Shown here: positions 12,501 through 48,500 of the stretch, one piece after another
How positions within the stretch are numbered: the first letter of the stretch is position 1
How the letters are laid out: every line of letters starts with the position of its first letter
NCBI GenBank assembly: GCA_965235115.1
Contig: OZ249442.1
Coordinates: 16,678,001-16,742,000 of the forward strand
Direction: 5' to 3'
Source: Laetmonice hystrix
Taxonomy: Eukaryota
DNA length: 64,000 bases
Made by a program: the position numbers

Positions 12501-15500
12501 NNNNNNNNNNNNNNNNNNNNNNNNNNNNNNNNNNNNNNNNNNNNNNNNNNNNNNNNNNNNNNNNCTAGTTATTTGCCGTTTATGTTAAGTATAGGCCTAC
12601 GTATAGGTAGGCTACACTGCGGTCACCAGAGAATCACCAGCAACATGACCACGTACATGTGCATGGGTGACTTTATATGTCTTTACTGTGAAAATACTAA
12701 TGGATACGTTTACAGCGATCAAACAAGGTCAGTATAAATTTACAGACGTATTATCTATTGTATATACTTTTAGTTTATGATAATTTAAGATATGTAACGA
12801 ATCTTCGGTTTACATAATTATTCCATGTCTCTGCAATATTCAATGGCATGCAGGTGCGGAATTCCAAAAGTTTCCAGTATAGTTTCCGCTCAATGAACGC
12901 GAACATTTCAATCGTAACCAATATGGAGATGTTGGAATAATTATTTTCTCTTAGCGCGGCTCCAACCCCGAGATCTCGCCCTGAAATAGCTGAAATACTG
13001 CTGACTGGGCGNNNNNNNNNNNNNNNNNNNNNNNNNNNNNNNNNNNNNNNNNNNNNNNNNNNNNNNNNNNNNNNNNNNNNNNNNNNNNNNNNNNNNNNNN
13101 NNNNNNNNNNNNNNNNNNNNNNNNNNNNNNNNNNNNNNNNNNNNNNNNNGCTTACAATCTCTACTCGCCCCACTATGCCGAATAGATGCATGTAAACGCG
13201 GCCAGTGCAGTTCATGTTGTACATATTTTGTTTACAGCCCCACATTTAGCTTTTCCCCTTCCCCCAGATTAGGGTCAGGTGGGGTGATTAATAAGGATAG
13301 GGCATGGTTGCCCTGATTTGGTGGACTATACTCGTGTTAACAGGGCATACATGGTTGGTTGGATTTCTAACCCTCACGTCGAGGACAGTCAGAGTTCCGA
13401 ACCGCAGGTATTCAAATTGAAAGAGGGCAGTTTTCAATAATATTATTTATTTATAAAAAAGAGTCTATATTTACCCAGTTGCCCGTGTATACTGGGAACA
13501 TTGCAAGGTACCAATCCTAATGCCATAATAAAATGTTCCACAACAAGAAGCCGATTGTCATGTTTGCAGCCCATTGCAATAAATAAAAGTGAGGTTTACC
13601 GTTTCCTAGGCTATCGAAAATGATCATCTTTGGTTACTGCTTACACACTGAAAACATCAGCATTGGTGGTAGTACATGCATGGGTAGGAATAATACGGCA
13701 ATCGATTTTCACACTGTATTTCTTTAACCACTCGCAAAACTAAGAAAGAGGGAAGAAGAACAAGTAGAAGTATGGTGTGTTGTTCTTTCAGCTCGGTTTT
13801 CGACGGATTGTTTGTATACACGGGTCAGGACAGGGACGAACCTTTGGGAGTTCCCAACGTTCACGGTAAGTTCTCCCGGATAGGTTTGGTACGAAAGCCC
13901 AGAAGGCTCATTTGAAATTAAAATTTCGAAGTTGCAATCGTGGGGGTGGGGTGATAAAGATGACGAGAAAACGAAACCGGCCACTGCTGAGAGGCAATCC
14001 TACGAAGATGTATAAGGGCCATGGCCAAAAAAAAATCACAAAAAAGTCTAACCCGTACAGGGGCGGATCCAGCTTTTTCCGTTAGGGGGGGGGGGGGGGT
14101 TCAACGTGTTTAGGGGTAACACAGACGTGACTGTACGAGCGCCGAAGGTGCGAAGTCTGCAAGCGCTGAAGGCGCGAAGCCTTCTTAGGGGGGTCCGTGG
14201 GCATGCCCCCCGAAAAATTTTGAAATTCCAGGGTTAATTTGTTTCAATCCGATGCATTTTGGAGCACAAAATAAGCTATTCAATGACCAATGTGACCAAG
14301 GGCAAAAGGGCCAACAGCATCTTTGGTTATAGGATTAAATCCTGCCGAGCGTAGCGAGGCAAACAAATTTTTTAGGTGGTTTTTATCTTGCGACTGAAAG
14401 AAAAAACTTCTAAATTATAATGTTAAGTTAAAATGTGTGTATCTGCAAAATTTTAGGGGGGGGGGGTTCGAACCCCCTGAACCCTCCCCCTGGATCCGCC
14501 AGTGCCGTACGTACGACTTAGTAACCCGTACGTACGACTTACTAACCCGTACACACGTACTAACCGGTACGTACGACTTAGTAACCCGTACGCACGACTT
14601 AGTAACCCGTACGTACGACTTAGTAACCCGTACGTACGACTTTTAGTAACCCGACTCTTTGTGTTCACTGTGAAAAAAGTCTAACCCGTACGTACGACTT
14701 AGTAACCCGTACGTACGACTTAGTAAGTCGTACGTACGGGTTACTAAGTCGTACGTACGGGTTACTAAGTCGTACGTACGGGTTACTAAGTCGTACGTAC
14801 GGGTTACTAAGTCGTATGTACGGGTTACTAAGTCGTACGTACGGGTTACTAAGTCGTACGTACGGGTTACTAAGTCGTACGTACGGGTTACTAACTCGTA
14901 CGTACGGGTTACTAAGTCGTACGTACGGGTTATACTTTTTTGTGATTTTTTTTTTGCCATGGCCCTAATACAGCTTCGTACAATCCTGATGGTATATGCA
15001 AAGATGATTCTGCAATCGGACACTCCACCACTTCCGCCTCGCTCCAGTTGTCGCCTTTTACGAACAGCCAATCGAGGTACCCCGAGGGGAATAAGGCTGT
15101 CGCGTCCCGCCGTCCCGCCGCCACGCCCCTTCGCCCCGTCGCCTCGGCCCGTCGCCCCCCAAAATATAGGCCGAATCGTAAAGGGTTGGAGGATGGATAG
15201 CAGAATGCTGTATTTGTTTCGTTAGACAGAACCATTTTATTGTTAACCACCTGATTTTGTTCATAACTTGGAACAGTGTCAATAGAACCAAAGTGACCGT
15301 GACTTCGCACGACAGTAAGCACACACCTCATCAGGTTAGGCTAACCATTGTAATCAAACCCGTTCTTATCGGGCGTTACTAAATACCAACAGATTTGGAA
15401 AGAAACAGGCCACTTTATTATGTCGTGAACTATTGGCCCATAGATATTATGGCCTTGGGTCGTATGTACACAGCAGTGTTATCCTTATGCCCCCGTGACA

Positions 15501-45500: not shown

Positions 45501-48500
45501 GCTCTCTCATTTGCTGGGACATTCTTCTACGGATATTTCTTTGCCTTTCATCTGGTAAACATCGTTGCCAATAATGAGCTGTTGAAGGGCGTGATCAAGG
45601 CGATTACTCAGAATGGTAACACACGTCGCTAAGCGATCTTTGTAGTTTTTGTTTTAAAAGATTTGTTATGTGAAAATGTGGTACAATGTATATACATGTA
45701 ATTCATGGTAACTTAAAACCCAGGAAAATTTGGTCGGAAGTAAATATCTATCCGAGCCTAACCTTATCCCTAACCCCTAACACCGGTCCCTAGACCTCCG
45801 AAAACATATCCCTCTCCCTCTCCCTGACTCAACCCTAACCCAAACGTTTCGTGGCGAAGTTACCATGAATTAATAAAGGAAAATGTGAGTACCACTGAAT
45901 GAGCTTTAAAACGCTAAAAATGAAAATTCCAATTGCATATTGCATGGCTCTATTTAGTTGAAGGTTTGGAACCTTATGCGCCTTAAAGTAACTGCTATTA
46001 CCTTACACATTGTTTTTTAAGGTAAAACATGTCCCGCTAGTTTCTGACGCCTCTAAATGTTGATTACACATTGAACCACCCGCAGGTAAGTCGCTGCTGT
46101 GGGTGATGATAATGGGGCTGATTATCATTTACTTGTACGGCTTGATCGGGTTTGCCTTCCTGCGCCCAATCTTCAATCCAGAGGAGGAGCTTTACTGTAA
46201 CAGTCTGGCCCAGTGCATCGTGACTGTTCTACGGTACGGAGTCGTCGGAGGAATCTCCGAGGTAGGTTGGCCCCCATAATCAGGGCCGGATCCAGGGGGG
46301 GCGTGGGGGGCGTACGCCCCCCTATTTTTGGCAGAGTAATGATTTTTTAGACTGGAATTTTACCAGTATCTTTGCCCCCTGACAGTTCTTTTCTCAGATG
46401 CCGGGAAAATGCATCTGACAAACATGAATTTTCAAATTTTTCGGGGGGAGGTCCCCCAGACCCCCCCTTGGGCTTTGCGCCTTCGGCGCTCGCAATCTTC
46501 TCCAGGGGCTACGCCCCCCCTTTCTAAGAATCCTGGATCCGGCCCTGATAATAGAACGTGTTTAACATTTATAGAAAATACTTAAGTAATGAATGAATGG
46601 ATTGATTAATTAAAAGACGGGTGAAAAGATAAATATTTCTTCCAAAAGGTTTTGAGTAATCGTGTTTCTGCTAGAAGACGACTCATGTATATGTAAGCAC
46701 CTGTCGGTAGTGTCTTGCTAAATGTAGTAAAATTTTGTTATTTAATTCAGAAAATAGTGACTTGTAAGCCCAAGAGGGCTGGGTGAGACTTGTATAGTAC
46801 AATGTTCTGAGAGCGACAGTATACGACAACCTATCTATCTATCTGTATGGTAAGAAACTGTTTGTGGTCCTCCACAGACCTTCAGGATGCACGATCTTCA
46901 GAAAAACTTCCAGACGTTTGGGATGATGACGGTCTATCAACTGACGTTCTTCATTCTCTTCACGACAATCGGTCTCAATATAATCTTTGGTATCATCGTG
47001 GACACCTTCTCCGAGCTGAGGGACCTCAAGGTTTGTCACATGGAGCGATTAAAGCTTTTAGCACGTAAACTGTTCAAAATGTAGACTTTATTCTGAATCA
47101 TACCATGCCTGTTACTGTATACTGACCAATGTTTGTTTTTTCAGTGGATGGCCGAGAAGGACATGAGAGACACATGTTTCATCTGTAGTCGGGACAGCTA
47201 CGATTTTGAACATGAAGGCCTGGTACTTCTGAAACATATTTTTTACAGAAGTCTGTGGAGAACTGGTGTTGTTTTAAAGGGGCATGATATACAAATGTAT
47301 TTATAGACGTACACAAACTATTTATAGATGTTCGTCACAGGCTCCAGCGAGCATTTATTATGTGTTCATTTATTATGTGGCAGGGGTTCATCTACCACGT
47401 ACAACAGGAGCACAATATGTGGGCTTACGTCTTCTACTTTCTCTACCTAAGTCAAGTCAAGCCCAACGATTACACATCAATTGAAAAACACGTGGCCACC
47501 CTGGTAGGATATGAGTAAATGTATTACATTTCGTGGGAGCAACTTATTACCTCGGATTAATTATTTTGAAAGATGGCACATCAGAGTTCTCTGTAGGGTG
47601 TTGTCTCGTAAAATGAACGTTCGTAAAAGGGGGGGGATTAAAAGTTGTGTGAGTCAAACCCCCACCCTGTCCGTCCACGCCCCAATACAAAAAAAAACGG
47701 AACTACGAGCTCTTCCAGAAGAAGTCGGAATATACATGTAAAAAAATTCTCTTATTTGCAGTTGAAGCGGAAGAACTTTTCCACTTGAATACCGAATGGT
47801 ACATTTTGCTATAGGTCTATACTATAAATTCACCCCTTACCTTCTAGTTGAAGCAGGACAAGCTGGACTTCTTTCCACTAAATCGAGCGCTGTGTCTATC
47901 GTATGTCAATGACAGTAGTCAGGACTCACAACTCAACAACCTCATGCAAACTTTGCAGGCCATTAAGTCCAAACAGGACGAGGACGTAAGTCAAAACTTA
48001 GATACATTTGAGGTTGTTTTGCTGATGTGCGAGTAAACTACTGGGCTAGCCTCTAGCTCAGAACACTCAACATGTGATTAATGATTCTTTAATGCCGGGA
48101 CCTGTGAACCATTAAAGAGGATTGTTTTTAAAACAAGCATTCCCAGAGATCCATCAAATCGACGTCATCTCTTTTCGAACAGTTGACAGTCGGAAGGAGG
48201 TAATCTTCAGAAATTTTCTCTCTCGACTGCAGGAGCAGAGAAGAAGCCGCGAGGCCGAGCGACAACGTCAGGCAGTGTGGCAGGAACAGTTCCGGTTCCT
48301 CCACAAAACGCGCTCGTCCTCCCTGAGAACCGAAGACGCGTTGAGCAGCCACGACGGCGAGTCAACAGCCTAGAGCGGCTGGTCGCATCTCGTCTGCTAA
48401 CTTCTGACGTCATTCGCTGACTGAGCTGTGTCACGTGACTCGCTTGCCTCAGACGTCGTCGGTAGCGTCGCTCTACGTTTTATTACGTGTCACTGGACCA

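What the first reader, a model, noticed from the sequence alone, without database searches (positions are those of the whole stretch)
12645..48373. Intact 68-exon ITPR-like gene that appears to be a divergent paralogue, not the canonical IP3R
Seen: complete reading frame of ~2552 aa with full ITPR domain order. Many landmark motifs differ from the canonical ITPR sequences that are usually near-invariant across animals (e.g. ITFQVSSQNRY versus LFKLCPMNRY; DNRKIIDR; LCDGQ versus LCENH). Established: canonical ITPRs are ~2700 aa and very conserved. Inference: a member of a poorly characterised invertebrate ITPR-like clade with potentially different gating.
[Added by the scan's program, not by the reader: the finding's places include an assembly gap (unread letters, written N; its length is only estimated) at 13012 to 13149. 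Whether the letters on both sides are continuous or in frame is not known: test that first.]
Basis: partly seen in the sequence, partly recalled or inferred. Interest (0 to 1): 0.65.

Follow-up and report, generated by a model that had tools for sequence, protein, structure and literature searches.

The report
Non-canonical (B-type) IP3 receptor gene
This is an intact, many-exon gene for a calcium-release channel of the little-studied "B" branch of the IP3-receptor family, which invertebrates keep and vertebrates have lost. It is a new, fast-evolving member of a known family, not a new kind of gene.

Summary
On the + strand, from ATG 12645 to TAG 48373, 62 exons match a profile of relatives in order (profile positions 2-2606 of 2631). 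Six further tentative exons give an open 68-exon GT-AG model of 2565 codons.

The N run 13012-13149 lies inside intron 1. Exons 1 and 2 join in phase with no profile residue missing.

The gene is not a canonical ITPR. Summed over the 62 exons it is 40-44% identical to one spiralian clade of ITPR-like proteins and 21% identical to a canonical insect IP3R. Placing it beside the canonical receptor costs 424 lnL units.

The family is the IP3R-B/IP3RB subfamily already in print.

The gene sits inside one spiralian B clade on a branch of 1.05 changes per site, against 0.15-1.01 for the other members.

Whether it binds IP3 is open.

The rest of this genome could not be searched for a canonical ITPR.

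The parts
12645..48373 (+). Whole coding span of the B-type IP3R-like gene (ATG to TAG)
   Evidence: Collinear profile matches at positions 2-2606 of 2631. Open 68-exon GT-AG model of 2565 codons. All 3213 tblastn matches of relatives lie on the + strand inside 12000-49000.
12645..12727 (+). Exon 1 with start codon
   Evidence: Profile positions 2-30, E 6.5e-08. Donor GT at 12728. Lies on a 447-base island between two N runs.
13012..13149 (.). Assembly gap (138 N) inside intron 1 (12728-13791)
   Evidence: exons 1 and 2 join in phase 2+1 with delta 0 in profile coordinates.
13792..19936 (+). Exons 2-8, rest of the first beta-trefoil (Ins145_P3_rec): 13792-13865, 16291-16415, 16603-16689, 18557-18634, 18978-19058, 19260-19357, 19849-19936
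   Evidence: Junctions. The domain is mapped through P0158, whose Pfam Ins145_P3_rec covers residues 39-252, using the matches.
20351..23031 (+). Exons 9-12, second beta-trefoil (MIR): 20351-20438, 20765-21018, 21562-21646, 22946-23031. Holds HLRIRERLP in place of the canonical LRTTGR.
   Evidence: Pfam MIR 41.4 bits (cut-off 25.6) on the frame 20731-21099. Motif comparison.
24310..31630 (+). Exons 13-28, ARM1/RIH region: 24310-24453, 24743-24796, 25053-25133, 25940-26014, 26310-26423, 26621-26743, 26882-26986, 27175-27285, 27528-27605, 27984-28116, 29192-29301, 29442-29558, 29646-29781, 30774-30873, 31122-31176, 31521-31630
   Evidence: Exon 24743-24796 was matched 20 times in its frame by the gap pieces of 93 relatives (best E 0.006). 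KDRQKLLRN lies in exon 25053-25133, SKKN in 26310-26423 and DNRKIIDR in 26621-26743. P0158 RYDR_ITPR 515-670 maps to 25053-27285.
31708..31899 (+). Two tentative exons, 31708-31737 and 31806-31899, closing a gap of about 46 profile residues
   Evidence: Supported only by coding bias, splice sites and phase. No convincing homology.
32179..36135 (+). Exons 31-39 of the central helical region: 32179-32301, 32475-32611, 32728-32795, 32961-33016, 33596-33757, 34185-34292, 34519-34649, 35250-35334, 35948-36135
   Evidence: Exon 32961-33016 was matched 75 times in its frame by the gap pieces of 80 relatives (best E 8.1e-05).
36506..36603 (+). Tentative exon closing a gap of about 50 profile residues
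   Evidence: Coding bias and phase only. Weak matches, best E 0.56.
37222..39577 (+). Exons 41-47: 37222-37382 (acceptor unsure, core 37248-37382), 37624-37728, 38161-38299 (core from 38176), 38486-38618, 38861-39007, 39171-39327, 39480-39577
39895..40331 (+). Two tentative exons, 39895-40006 and 40209-40331, in the variable K/R/S-rich linker (about 115 profile residues)
   Evidence: Low-complexity matches, best E 0.001 for 39884-40078. The linker varies in length across the whole family.
40636..42351 (+). Exons 50-54, ARM3 / RIH_assoc with LCDGQ (40756-40770): 40636-40785, 40979-41128, 41652-41753, 41891-41974, 42283-42351
   Evidence: P0158 RIH_assoc 1927-2021 maps to 40976-41777.
42670..42756 (+). 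Tentative in-frame exon in a gap of about 31 profile residues
   Evidence: Coding bias only.
42878..43903 (+). Exons 56-58 before the membrane region: 42878-42983, 43357-43472, 43734-43903
   Evidence: Exon 43734-43903 scores 83.2 bits against the profile.
44400..47030 (+). Exons 59-64, channel domain: 44400-44531, 44869-45021, 45155-45275, 45492-45615, 46086-46261 (S5, pore helix, filter GVVGGISE at 46238-46261), 46878-47030 (S6)
   Evidence: Exon 46086-46261 aligns to S5 and the pore helix of IP3R3 chains. Pfam Ion_trans scores 20 and 13 bits, below its cut-off.
47145..48373 (+). Exons 65-68, linker with C-x2-C...H-x4-H zinc finger and C-terminal tail: 47145-47222, 47384-47503, 47848-47985, 48233-48373 (TAG 48371-48373)
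   Evidence: Residue 31 of exon 47384-47503 (codon 47474-47476, Thr) falls on index 2657 of chain 3jav_A.

Best explanation
The locus is an intact gene for a B-type IP3-receptor-like channel (IP3R-B/IP3RB subfamily), probably from a spiralian (lophotrochozoan) animal.

By homology it should form a tetrameric cation (Ca2+) release channel of an internal membrane. The layout is two N-terminal beta-trefoils plus a helical domain as the ligand-binding region, a long helical regulatory part, six membrane helices with a pore loop, and a zinc-finger linker.

Shown here: the gene structure, family membership, the state of individual residues, and a long branch.

Inferred: that it is a working Ca2+ channel. 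Its gating probably differs from canonical IP3Rs, because the beta-trefoil side of the IP3 pocket and the selectivity filter are remodelled, as in the whole B family. My odds:
- a functional intracellular cation channel: 0.8
- opened by IP3 as canonical receptors are: 0.35
- gated mainly by Ca2+ or an unknown ligand: 0.45
For: GENE: 62 exons are collinear with a 2631-position profile of 32 relatives. 47 of 59 junctions fit exactly and 54 of 59 fit within 3 residues. An open 68-exon GT-AG model exists.

FAMILY:
- The 84-aa MIR exon found 176 proteins at E<=1e-3 among 1.84 billion representatives. All 19 listed hits of 800 aa or more give further + strand tblastn matches elsewhere in the gene. 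All 22 long proteins classed, nine of them, score 2-5 times higher against B-type references than against the canonical Anopheles IP3R.
- The closest named relatives are spiralian, hemichordate, placozoan, sponge and Capsaspora 'ITPR-like' proteins. They include Lottia, Capitella and Saccoglossus, species from which IP3RB was reported.
- These relatives score only 260-381 bits against solved IP3R1-3 chains.
- Identity summed over 62 exons (about 2300 columns): closest spiralian clade 40-44%, hemichordates 36-40%, second spiralian clade 36-39%, Trichoplax 36%, sponges 33-36%, single-celled relatives 27-31%, canonical Anopheles IP3R 21.4%.
- That closest clade is best in 39 of 62 exons by mean identity and in 50 of 62 by best member.

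TREE: ML on 62 per-exon partitions (37 rows, 2287 columns) places the gene inside that spiralian clade, with SH-aLRT 100 and 99.7. The AU test rejects placement with the second spiralian clade, the hemichordates, all bilaterian B, or the canonical receptor (delta lnL 204-424, p<=3e-4).

RESIDUES (receptor numbering recalled):
- Kept: R265, K508, R511, K569.
- Conservative changes: R504K, R568K.
- Changed: T266, T267, G268, R269, Y567S.
- The same pattern holds in the 71 B references (K508, R511 and K569 in 71 of 71; Y567S in 70 of 71).
- Zinc finger C, C, H, H kept.
- S6 identical to the family consensus in GLNIIFGIIVDTFSELRD.
- The Thr matching rT2657 of the Ca2+ site is kept (residue list read in PMC9522344).
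Against: - No transcript evidence. Six of the 68 exons rest on coding bias alone. Five stretches (31631-32178, 36136-37247, 37729-38175, 39578-40635, 42352-42877) are not resolved by homology.
- The tree search was the fast one, and a bootstrap run did not finish.
- The exact position inside the spiralian clade is open. Sister to Lingula X4 is the ML result (SH-aLRT 91.8), but sister to the 13-row core (AU 0.227) or to the annelid group (AU 0.246) is not rejected.
- For gating, a secondary source says IP3R-B 'could not bind IP3' (PMC9113742). Yet the three basic residues I recall as essential for binding are present, so the sequence does not decide.
- Four of 7 single-exon searches of solved structures found no IP3R chain at all. 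Residue mapping in the ligand-binding region therefore rests on one alignment to the Anopheles protein, and that alignment is ambiguous by two columns at LRTTGR.
Confidence: 0.85

Rival explanations
1. The long branch is specific to this gene. It is an extra, lineage-specific duplicate of the spiralian B-type gene that has been released from constraint or has taken on a new role. It is not the ordinary orthologue of a generally fast-evolving animal.
For: - The terminal branch is 1.05 changes per site, against 0.15-1.01 (15 of 16 at or below 0.66) for the other members of the clade.
- On the 32 best-supported exons the gene is 46-48% identical to clade members that are 58-64% identical to each other.
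- Spiralians often carry several paralogues (four in Owenia, three in Lineus).
- No protein closer than 52% over 313 aa was found among the representatives.
Against: - No second gene of this genome was compared, so a genome-wide high rate is just as possible.
- The lack of close relatives also fits a poorly sampled phylum.
- Key channel residues are kept, which argues against decay.
Confidence: 0.35
2. It is the sole, fast-evolving orthologue of the canonical ITPR in this animal.
For: Same domain order and similar length. NCBI's automatic names for its relatives are 'ITPR1/2/3-like'.
Against: - 21.4% identity to the canonical Anopheles IP3R against 40-44% to B-type proteins.
- The canonical receptor equals the closest B clade in 1 of 62 exons.
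- Placement beside the canonical receptor costs 424 lnL units, AU p 4e-06.
- It has CDGQ, SKKN and an 11-residue S5-pore loop like the B references shown, against LCENH, YRKN and 67 residues in the canonical protein.
Confidence: 0.02
3. It is a pseudogene or an assembly chimera that only looks intact.
For: - Exon 1 sits on a 447-base island between two N runs.
- Five stretches could not be closed by homology.
- Minisatellites copy a donor and an acceptor site.
Against: - No stop or frameshift in 62 homology-supported exons.
- 47 of 59 junctions fit the profile exactly.
- A fully open 68-exon model exists.
- Order and orientation of every piece agree with the relatives.
- The unresolved stretches coincide with places where the family itself varies in length, shown for the largest one.
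Confidence: 0.05

Closest known systems
IP3R-B / IP3RB subfamily (Alzayady et al. 2015, Mol Biol Evol, not held here; leech hve-ip3rb2, PMC7992859)
   Same: - Groups with ITPR-like proteins of Lottia, Capitella and Saccoglossus, species from which IP3RB was reported, and with a Capsaspora relative.
- Same domain order and the same family signatures: FQV..QNRYK, HLR[IV]R, K.RQKL[LM]RN, SRKN, RDNRKI[IV]DR, CDGQ, an 11-residue S5-pore loop, and a filter ending in E.
   Different: - Much longer branch than the other animal members (1.05 against 0.15-1.01, with 15 of 16 at or below 0.66).
- Its own filter, GVVGGIS-E, against GLIGDMF-E in its clade. It has SKKN for SRKN (R568K; R in 69 of 71 references) and FQVSSQNRY for FQVC[IV]QNRY.
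- About 2565 aa against about 2850 aa for its clade. The shortfall lies in the variable linkers, if the model is right.
Canonical IP3 receptors (IP3R-A: vertebrate ITPR1-3, insect Itpr)
   Same: - Domain order Ins145_P3_rec, MIR, RIH, RIH_assoc, six-helix channel.
- Basic residues at 265, 504, 508, 511, 568 and 569. Zinc finger, S6 helix and the Thr of the Ca2+ site are kept.
   Different: - 21.4% identity.
- T266, T267, G268, R269 and Y567 replaced. D for the E of LCENH. Filter two residues shorter and lacking GGG.GD. S5-pore loop of 11 against 67 residues (one search shows about 50 unmatched IP3R3 residues there).
- Pfam domain scores of the B-type relatives are a quarter to a half of the canonical protein's for four domains and about 70% for RIH_assoc.
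Ryanodine receptors
   Same: Same superfamily. The MIR exon scores about the same against RyR1 (21.7 bits) as against IP3R1 (20.6 bits). A secondary source says RyR may have arisen from IP3R-B (PMC9113742).
   Different: - About half the length.
- Collinear with a 2631-position IP3R-like profile, with no room for SPRY or RyR-repeat insertions.
- Channel exons score higher against IP3R than RyR chains: 23.7 against 14.5 bits and 21.4 against 15.7 bits.

Membership tests
IP3R-B / IP3RB subfamily | Groups with the proteins of Lottia, Capitella and Saccoglossus (species from which IP3RB was reported) and with a Capsaspora relative, apart from canonical IP3R-A | tested here: met
   ML on 62 per-exon partitions nests it in a spiralian B clade (SH-aLRT 100 and 99.7). 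Placement beside the canonical Anopheles IP3R is rejected (delta lnL 424). Caveat: only one canonical sequence and no RyR in the set.
IP3R-B / IP3RB subfamily | IP3R-type architecture (two beta-trefoils, RIH, RIH_assoc, six-helix channel) at about 2500-2900 aa | tested here: met
   Collinear matches to profile positions 2-2606 of 2631. Domains mapped through P0158. By itself only the MIR exon passes a Pfam cut-off (1 of 20 frames scanned).
IP3R-B / IP3RB subfamily | Family signature residues, derived here from 71 B-type references and not taken from a published definition | tested here: met
   R504K (K in 64 of 71), Y567S (S in 70 of 71), LC-D (D in 59 of 71), filter ending in E (58 of 71). 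The S5-pore loop has 11 residues, as in all 7 animal B references measured. RDNRKIIDR is shared (slice).
IP3R-B / IP3RB subfamily | Does not bind IP3 (as reported second-hand for IP3R-B) | not testable with these tools
   Only the sentence in PMC9113742 was seen; the primary paper is not held. At sequence level 4 of 11 contact positions are identical, 2 conservative and 5 changed.
Canonical IP3R (IP3R-A) | Near-invariant IP3-contact residues, including LRTTGR and YRK | tested here: not met
   HLRIRERLP and SKKN in their place. The contact list and its numbering are recalled, not taken from a call.
Canonical IP3R (IP3R-A) | GGG[VI]GD selectivity filter after the pore helix | tested here: not met
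   GVVGGIS-E, two residues shorter than the Anopheles GGGIGD.
Canonical IP3R (IP3R-A) | High overall identity to canonical receptors of other phyla | tested here: not met
   21.4% to the Anopheles IP3R over 2147 aligned positions. 4 of 7 exon queries find no solved IP3R chain.
Ryanodine receptor | About 5000 aa with SPRY and RyR-repeat domains | tested here: not met
   About 2565 codons. No such domain in the 20 frames scanned. Collinear with the IP3R-like profile. Not every intron frame was scanned.

The most novel reading that the evidence does not exclude
A fast-evolving spiralian B-type channel that no longer responds to IP3. It keeps the Ca2+-site Thr, the zinc finger and S6, but has a rebuilt ligand pocket, a shortened filter (GGIS-E) and an 11-residue luminal loop. 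It would then be an internal cation channel with a different trigger (Ca2+ alone or an unknown ligand) and different permeation. It could serve a cell-type-specific role, like the touch-neuron expression of leech ip3rb2.
Probability: 0.25. Interest if true: 0.6.

Novelty: new member of a known kind. Interest (0 to 1): 0.3.

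Why it matters
Automatic annotation names B-type IP3 receptors 'ITPR1/2/3-like', which hides that they form a separate, old subfamily. The subfamily is absent from vertebrates, Drosophila and C. elegans, and its physiology is almost unknown (PMC7992859).

This locus adds a well-resolved gene structure and an unusually divergent member. The comparison made for it shows which parts of the IP3 pocket and the pore are kept or rebuilt across 71 family members. 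That gives concrete residues to test. It does not open a new category.

Tried and rejected
SEARCHES THAT FAILED OR ADDED NOTHING
- the MIR exon with lengths 'longer' found nothing, because that mode stops at 2000 aa.
- the last database search used alignment A1 (P0158 plus 59 separate exon rows). No candidate passed, most likely because MAFFT misplaced most fragments. So the window's own annotated protein or a close relative was never found.
The unnamed representatives stayed unnamed.
- the primary paper on IP3R-B (PMC4540961) is not held.
- the term 'IP3R-B' matched 'IP3R-binding'. Whole-word search found 2 records of one work.
- Rfam found nothing in the window.

WEAK RESULTS FROM SINGLE EXONS
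- Pfam on single frames was nearly blind. 1 of 20 frames passed a cut-off.
- four single-exon searches of solved structures gave no IP3R chain. The Ca2+-site glutamates (rE1978, rE2042) could therefore not be mapped.

GENE MODELLING AND TREE
- the first run of my exon-chaining script inserted micro-exons of 4-17 nt to fix phases. I rejected these as artefacts.
- the second run added in-frame exons where the profile is already continuous (16099-16122, 25569-25613, 33987-34013, 45383-45431). I rejected these too.
- the bootstrap run reached 10 iterations in 285 s and was dropped.

NOT ATTEMPTED
- The protein atlas, structure prediction and complex prediction were not used. They would have needed the joined protein, or are not meant for known families.

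Full report
WHAT WAS CHECKED FIRST: THE GAP

The window has three N runs: 12427-12564, 13012-13149 and 53805-53933. Exon 1 runs from the ATG at 12645 to 12727 and is followed by GT at 12728. The next exon supported by relatives is 13792-13865.

The two exons join in phase (2+1 bases). In the coordinates of a family profile, nothing is missing or doubled between them (delta 0). In the closest relative, residues 36-64 are followed by 63-87. The N run 13012-13149 therefore lies inside intron 1 (12728-13791) and breaks no reading frame.

Two things remain unknowable. One is the intron's true length. The other is the scaffold join itself: exon 1 sits on a 447-base island between two N runs. The frame stays open upstream of the ATG as far as the first N run. 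However, the ATG aligns with position 2 of the profile, so it is the likely start.

IS THE GENE THERE?

I built a profile from 32 relatives (2631 positions) and ran it against all 1301 stop-free + strand segments of 12000-49500. It gave 58 matches at E<5. Of these, 57 are collinear and one (14491) is off the chain. With three weaker collinear matches the chain has 60 members, covering positions 2-2606.

For each of the 59 junctions I looked for the GT-AG intron that closes the phase and best fits the profile coordinates:
- 47 junctions fit exactly.
- 54 fit within three residues.
- 5 miss six or more residues.

Two small exons in such places are supported by the relatives' own sequence between the flanking matches. 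Exon 32961-33016 was matched 75 times in its frame by the gap pieces of 80 relatives (best E 8.1e-05). Exon 24743-24796 was matched 20 times in its frame by the gap pieces of 93 relatives (best E 0.006).

This gives 62 exons (7113 nt) in six blocks that close in phase without a stop. Six more exons come from coding bias, splice-site scores and phase. With them the model has 68 exons and 7698 nt, which is 2565 codons plus TAG. Every intron is GT-AG, and introns run from 68 to 2425 bases with a median of 295.

Two other runs of my exon-chaining script gave 69 exons/2554 aa and 72 exons/2730 aa. The count is therefore not fixed without transcripts.

All searches were made exon by exon, and the joined step was left out.

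WHAT FAMILY IS IT?

Representative search. The longest exon (84 aa, MIR domain) was searched against 1.84 billion representatives. It found 176 proteins at E<=1e-3, the best at only 51% identity.

Named relatives. A search with the best full-length hit (a Lingula fragment) returned 122 proteins. They are named 'ITPR1/2/3-like' and come from molluscs, annelids, nemerteans, a brachiopod, flatworms, hemichordates, Trichoplax, sponges, Capsaspora and choanoflagellates. Often there are several per species. There were no vertebrates and only one insect protein, the canonical Anopheles IP3R, at 190 bits. That search finds only proteins sharing exact words with the query, so absences are weak evidence.

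The canonical protein is far from all of these. Every one of 22 long proteins tested scores 2-5 times higher against B-type references than against it. Two of the relatives score only 260-381 bits against solved IP3R1-3 chains.

Literature. This set is the IP3R-B/IP3RB subfamily, as far as I could read:
- The leech paper PMC7992859 (passages) cites Alzayady et al. 2015. It says the bilaterian ancestor had IP3RA, IP3RB and RyR. It says IP3RB was lost in vertebrates and is absent from Drosophila and C. elegans. Its tree includes Lottia, Capitella, Helobdella, Limulus and Saccoglossus.
- An eLife paper, PMC9113742 (one passage), summarises the same source: IP3R-B 'could not bind IP3', and RyR may have evolved from it.
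- The primary paper is not held.

Identity. Each exon was aligned as its own row to 72 references, and matches were summed over the 62 exons (about 2300 columns):

| Reference group | Identity to the window gene |
|---|---|
| Spiralian clade of about 2850-aa proteins (here 'tier-1') | 40-44% |
| Hemichordates (including the unnamed clade member P0049) | 36-40% |
| Second spiralian clade | 36-39% |
| Trichoplax | 36% |
| Sponges | 33-36% |
| Single-celled relatives | 27-31% |
| Canonical Anopheles IP3R | 21.4% |

Tier-1 is the best group in 39 of 62 exons by mean identity and in 50 of 62 by best member. The canonical protein reaches tier-1 in 1 of 62, an 18-residue exon.

Tree. I ran maximum likelihood on 62 per-exon partitions (37 rows, 2287 columns, LG+G4, fast search). 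It nests the gene in tier-1 with SH-aLRT 100 and 99.7, as sister to a Lingula protein (91.8).

An AU test over 12 placements on that backbone gave:
- Kept: sister to Lingula (p 0.907), sister to the 13-row core of tier-1 (0.227), sister to the annelid group (0.246).
- Weakly rejected: sister to all of tier-1 (0.035), to the molluscs (0.05), to the nemertean-b group (0.044).
- Strongly rejected: the second spiralian clade, hemichordates, all bilaterian B, Trichoplax plus bilaterians, and the canonical receptor (delta lnL 204-424, p<=3e-4).

Since tier-1 holds only spiralians, the animal is probably a spiralian. I do not take the contig for human.

HOW DIVERGENT IS IT?

Over the same columns, tier-1 proteins of different phyla are 55-63% identical to each other, and 41-45% identical to a sponge protein. 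The window gene is thus as far from its own clade as a sponge protein is.

Restricting to the 32 exons with profile E<1e-7 (1383 columns) does not change this. The gene is 46-48% identical to tier-1 members that are 58-64% identical to each other. Its terminal branch is 1.05 changes per site, against 0.15-1.01 (15 of 16 at or below 0.66) for the other tier-1 rows.

Whether this rate belongs to the gene or to the whole genome could not be tested.

- FQVSSQNRYK, against FQVC[IV]QNRYK in B-type proteins and ICPMNRY in the canonical one.
- RDNRKIIDR, the same in Glandiceps and Trichoplax, against HNNRKLLEKH.
- LCDGQ, against MCDGQ in the animal B-type proteins shown and LCENH in the canonical one. 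D occupies that position in 59 of 71 B references.

The table uses the canonical Anopheles protein as ruler. The receptor numbering is recalled, not taken from a call.

| Canonical position | Window gene | 71 B references |
|---|---|---|
| R265 | R | R in 68 |
| K508 | K | K in 71 |
| R511 | R | R in 71 |
| K569 | K | K in 71 |
| R504 | K | K in 64 |
| R568 | K | R in 69 |
| T266 | E | varied (P 21, V 14, E 8) |
| T267 | R | varied (I 19, M 15, V 14) |
| G268 | L | D in 59 |
| R269 | P | Q in 47, P in 14 |
| Y567 | S | S in 70 |

So the helical side of the IP3 pocket is kept and the beta-trefoil side is rebuilt, across the whole family. The alignment at LRTTGR is ambiguous by two columns.

Other features:
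- The pore helix aligns with IP3R3, but about 50 residues of the luminal S5-pore loop have no counterpart. The loop has 11 residues here and in all 7 animal B references measured, against 67 in Anopheles.
- The filter reads GVVGGIS-E, against GGGIGD in the canonical protein and GLIGDMF-E in tier-1.
- S6 and the C-x2-C...H-x4-H zinc finger are kept.
- Thr 31 of exon 47384-47503 falls on index 2657 of chain 3jav_A. PMC9522344 lists rT2657 among the Ca2+-site residues, with rE1978, rE2042 and rE2101 (passages).
- I recall that E2101 is the E of LCENH; if so, it is D here. The two other glutamates could not be mapped.
- The supplement of that paper (Fig. S1A) may bear on this and was closed.

HOW IT PROBABLY WORKS

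By homology it is a tetrameric cation-release channel of an internal membrane. The channel core, zinc-finger linker and one Ca2+-site residue are kept. The ligand pocket is half kept.

The sequence does not say whether IP3 opens it, and the one second-hand statement in print says B-type proteins do not bind IP3. I put 0.8 on a working channel, 0.35 on IP3 gating and 0.45 on gating by Ca2+ or another ligand.

SURROUNDINGS

Downstream, on the minus strand, lie three features:
- an exon of a Flavodoxin_2 (NQO-like) gene, 50306-50857
- a 601-codon open frame full of tandem repeats, 54248-56053
- a leucine-rich-repeat protein frame, 61454-62767

An RVT_1 fragment lies in an intron (23327-23659, minus strand). 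Rfam finds nothing in the window. Six minisatellite arrays lie in the gene's introns. Five of them end within 15 bases of an exon boundary or overlap it (compared).

WHAT STAYED UNCHECKED
- Whether this genome has a canonical ITPR, a RyR or more B-type genes.
- The window's own annotated protein, if there is one (searches found nothing).
- RyR and further canonical sequences in the tree.
- Bootstrap support (unfinished).
- The closed collections (metagenome and viral contigs) were not used and would hardly bear on an animal gene.

VERDICT

The gene is a new, long-branch member of a known subfamily. Interest is modest.

Noticed in passing
window 29747-30605: A 43-bp minisatellite (19.6 copies) starts 35 bases inside exon 29646-29781. 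It repeats the exon's 3' end together with its donor site (GTAGGC) into the intron. About twenty potential donors follow one another, and the period is not a multiple of three.
   Followed up: partly
window 33251-33602: A 70-bp repeat (5 copies, 98% alike) ends 7 bases inside exon 33596-33757 and so copies its acceptor site. An alternative acceptor exactly 70 bases upstream (33526) appeared in the junction search.
   Followed up: partly
window 17041-18545, 28125-29068, 38313-38497: Three more intronic minisatellites (46 bp x 32, 46 bp x 20.6, 31 bp x 6) end or start within 15 bases of an exon boundary. In all, 5 of the 6 arrays in the gene's introns do so. This could be chance, since some fill most of their intron, or a habit of this genome.
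   Followed up: no
window 14505-14932: A 21-bp repeat array whose two halves are reverse complements of each other (consensus units), in intron 2.
   Followed up: no
window 54248-56053 (- strand): A 601-codon open frame made largely of two tandem peptide repeats (42-bp and 36-bp units) and a His/Gln-rich stretch. Its only Pfam match is one weak UBA_Crd2 hit, likely spurious. It may be a repetitive secreted or matrix protein, or only an open repeat array.
   Followed up: partly
window 50306-50857 (- strand): An exon of a Flavodoxin_2 / NAD(P)H:quinone-oxidoreductase-like gene (77 bits), convergent with the 3' end of the channel gene.
   Followed up: partly
window 61454-62767 (- strand): A 437-codon open frame encoding a leucine-rich-repeat protein (LRR_8, 169.5 bits), apparently a single large exon.
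   Followed up: partly
window 23327-23659 (- strand): A reverse-transcriptase fragment (RVT_1, 35 bits) inside the intron between exons 22946-23031 and 24310-24453. It is a retroelement remnant.
   Followed up: partly
window 12427-12564 and 13012-13149: Two N runs of exactly 138 bases bracket a 447-base island that carries exon 1 and the start codon. The promoter and any 5' untranslated exon are therefore not readable.
   Followed up: yes
reference set: Spiralians carry at least two old B-type clades (about 2850 aa and about 2600 aa), with further duplicates in molluscs. NCBI names them ITPR1-, 2- or 3-like without regard to clade.
   Followed up: partly
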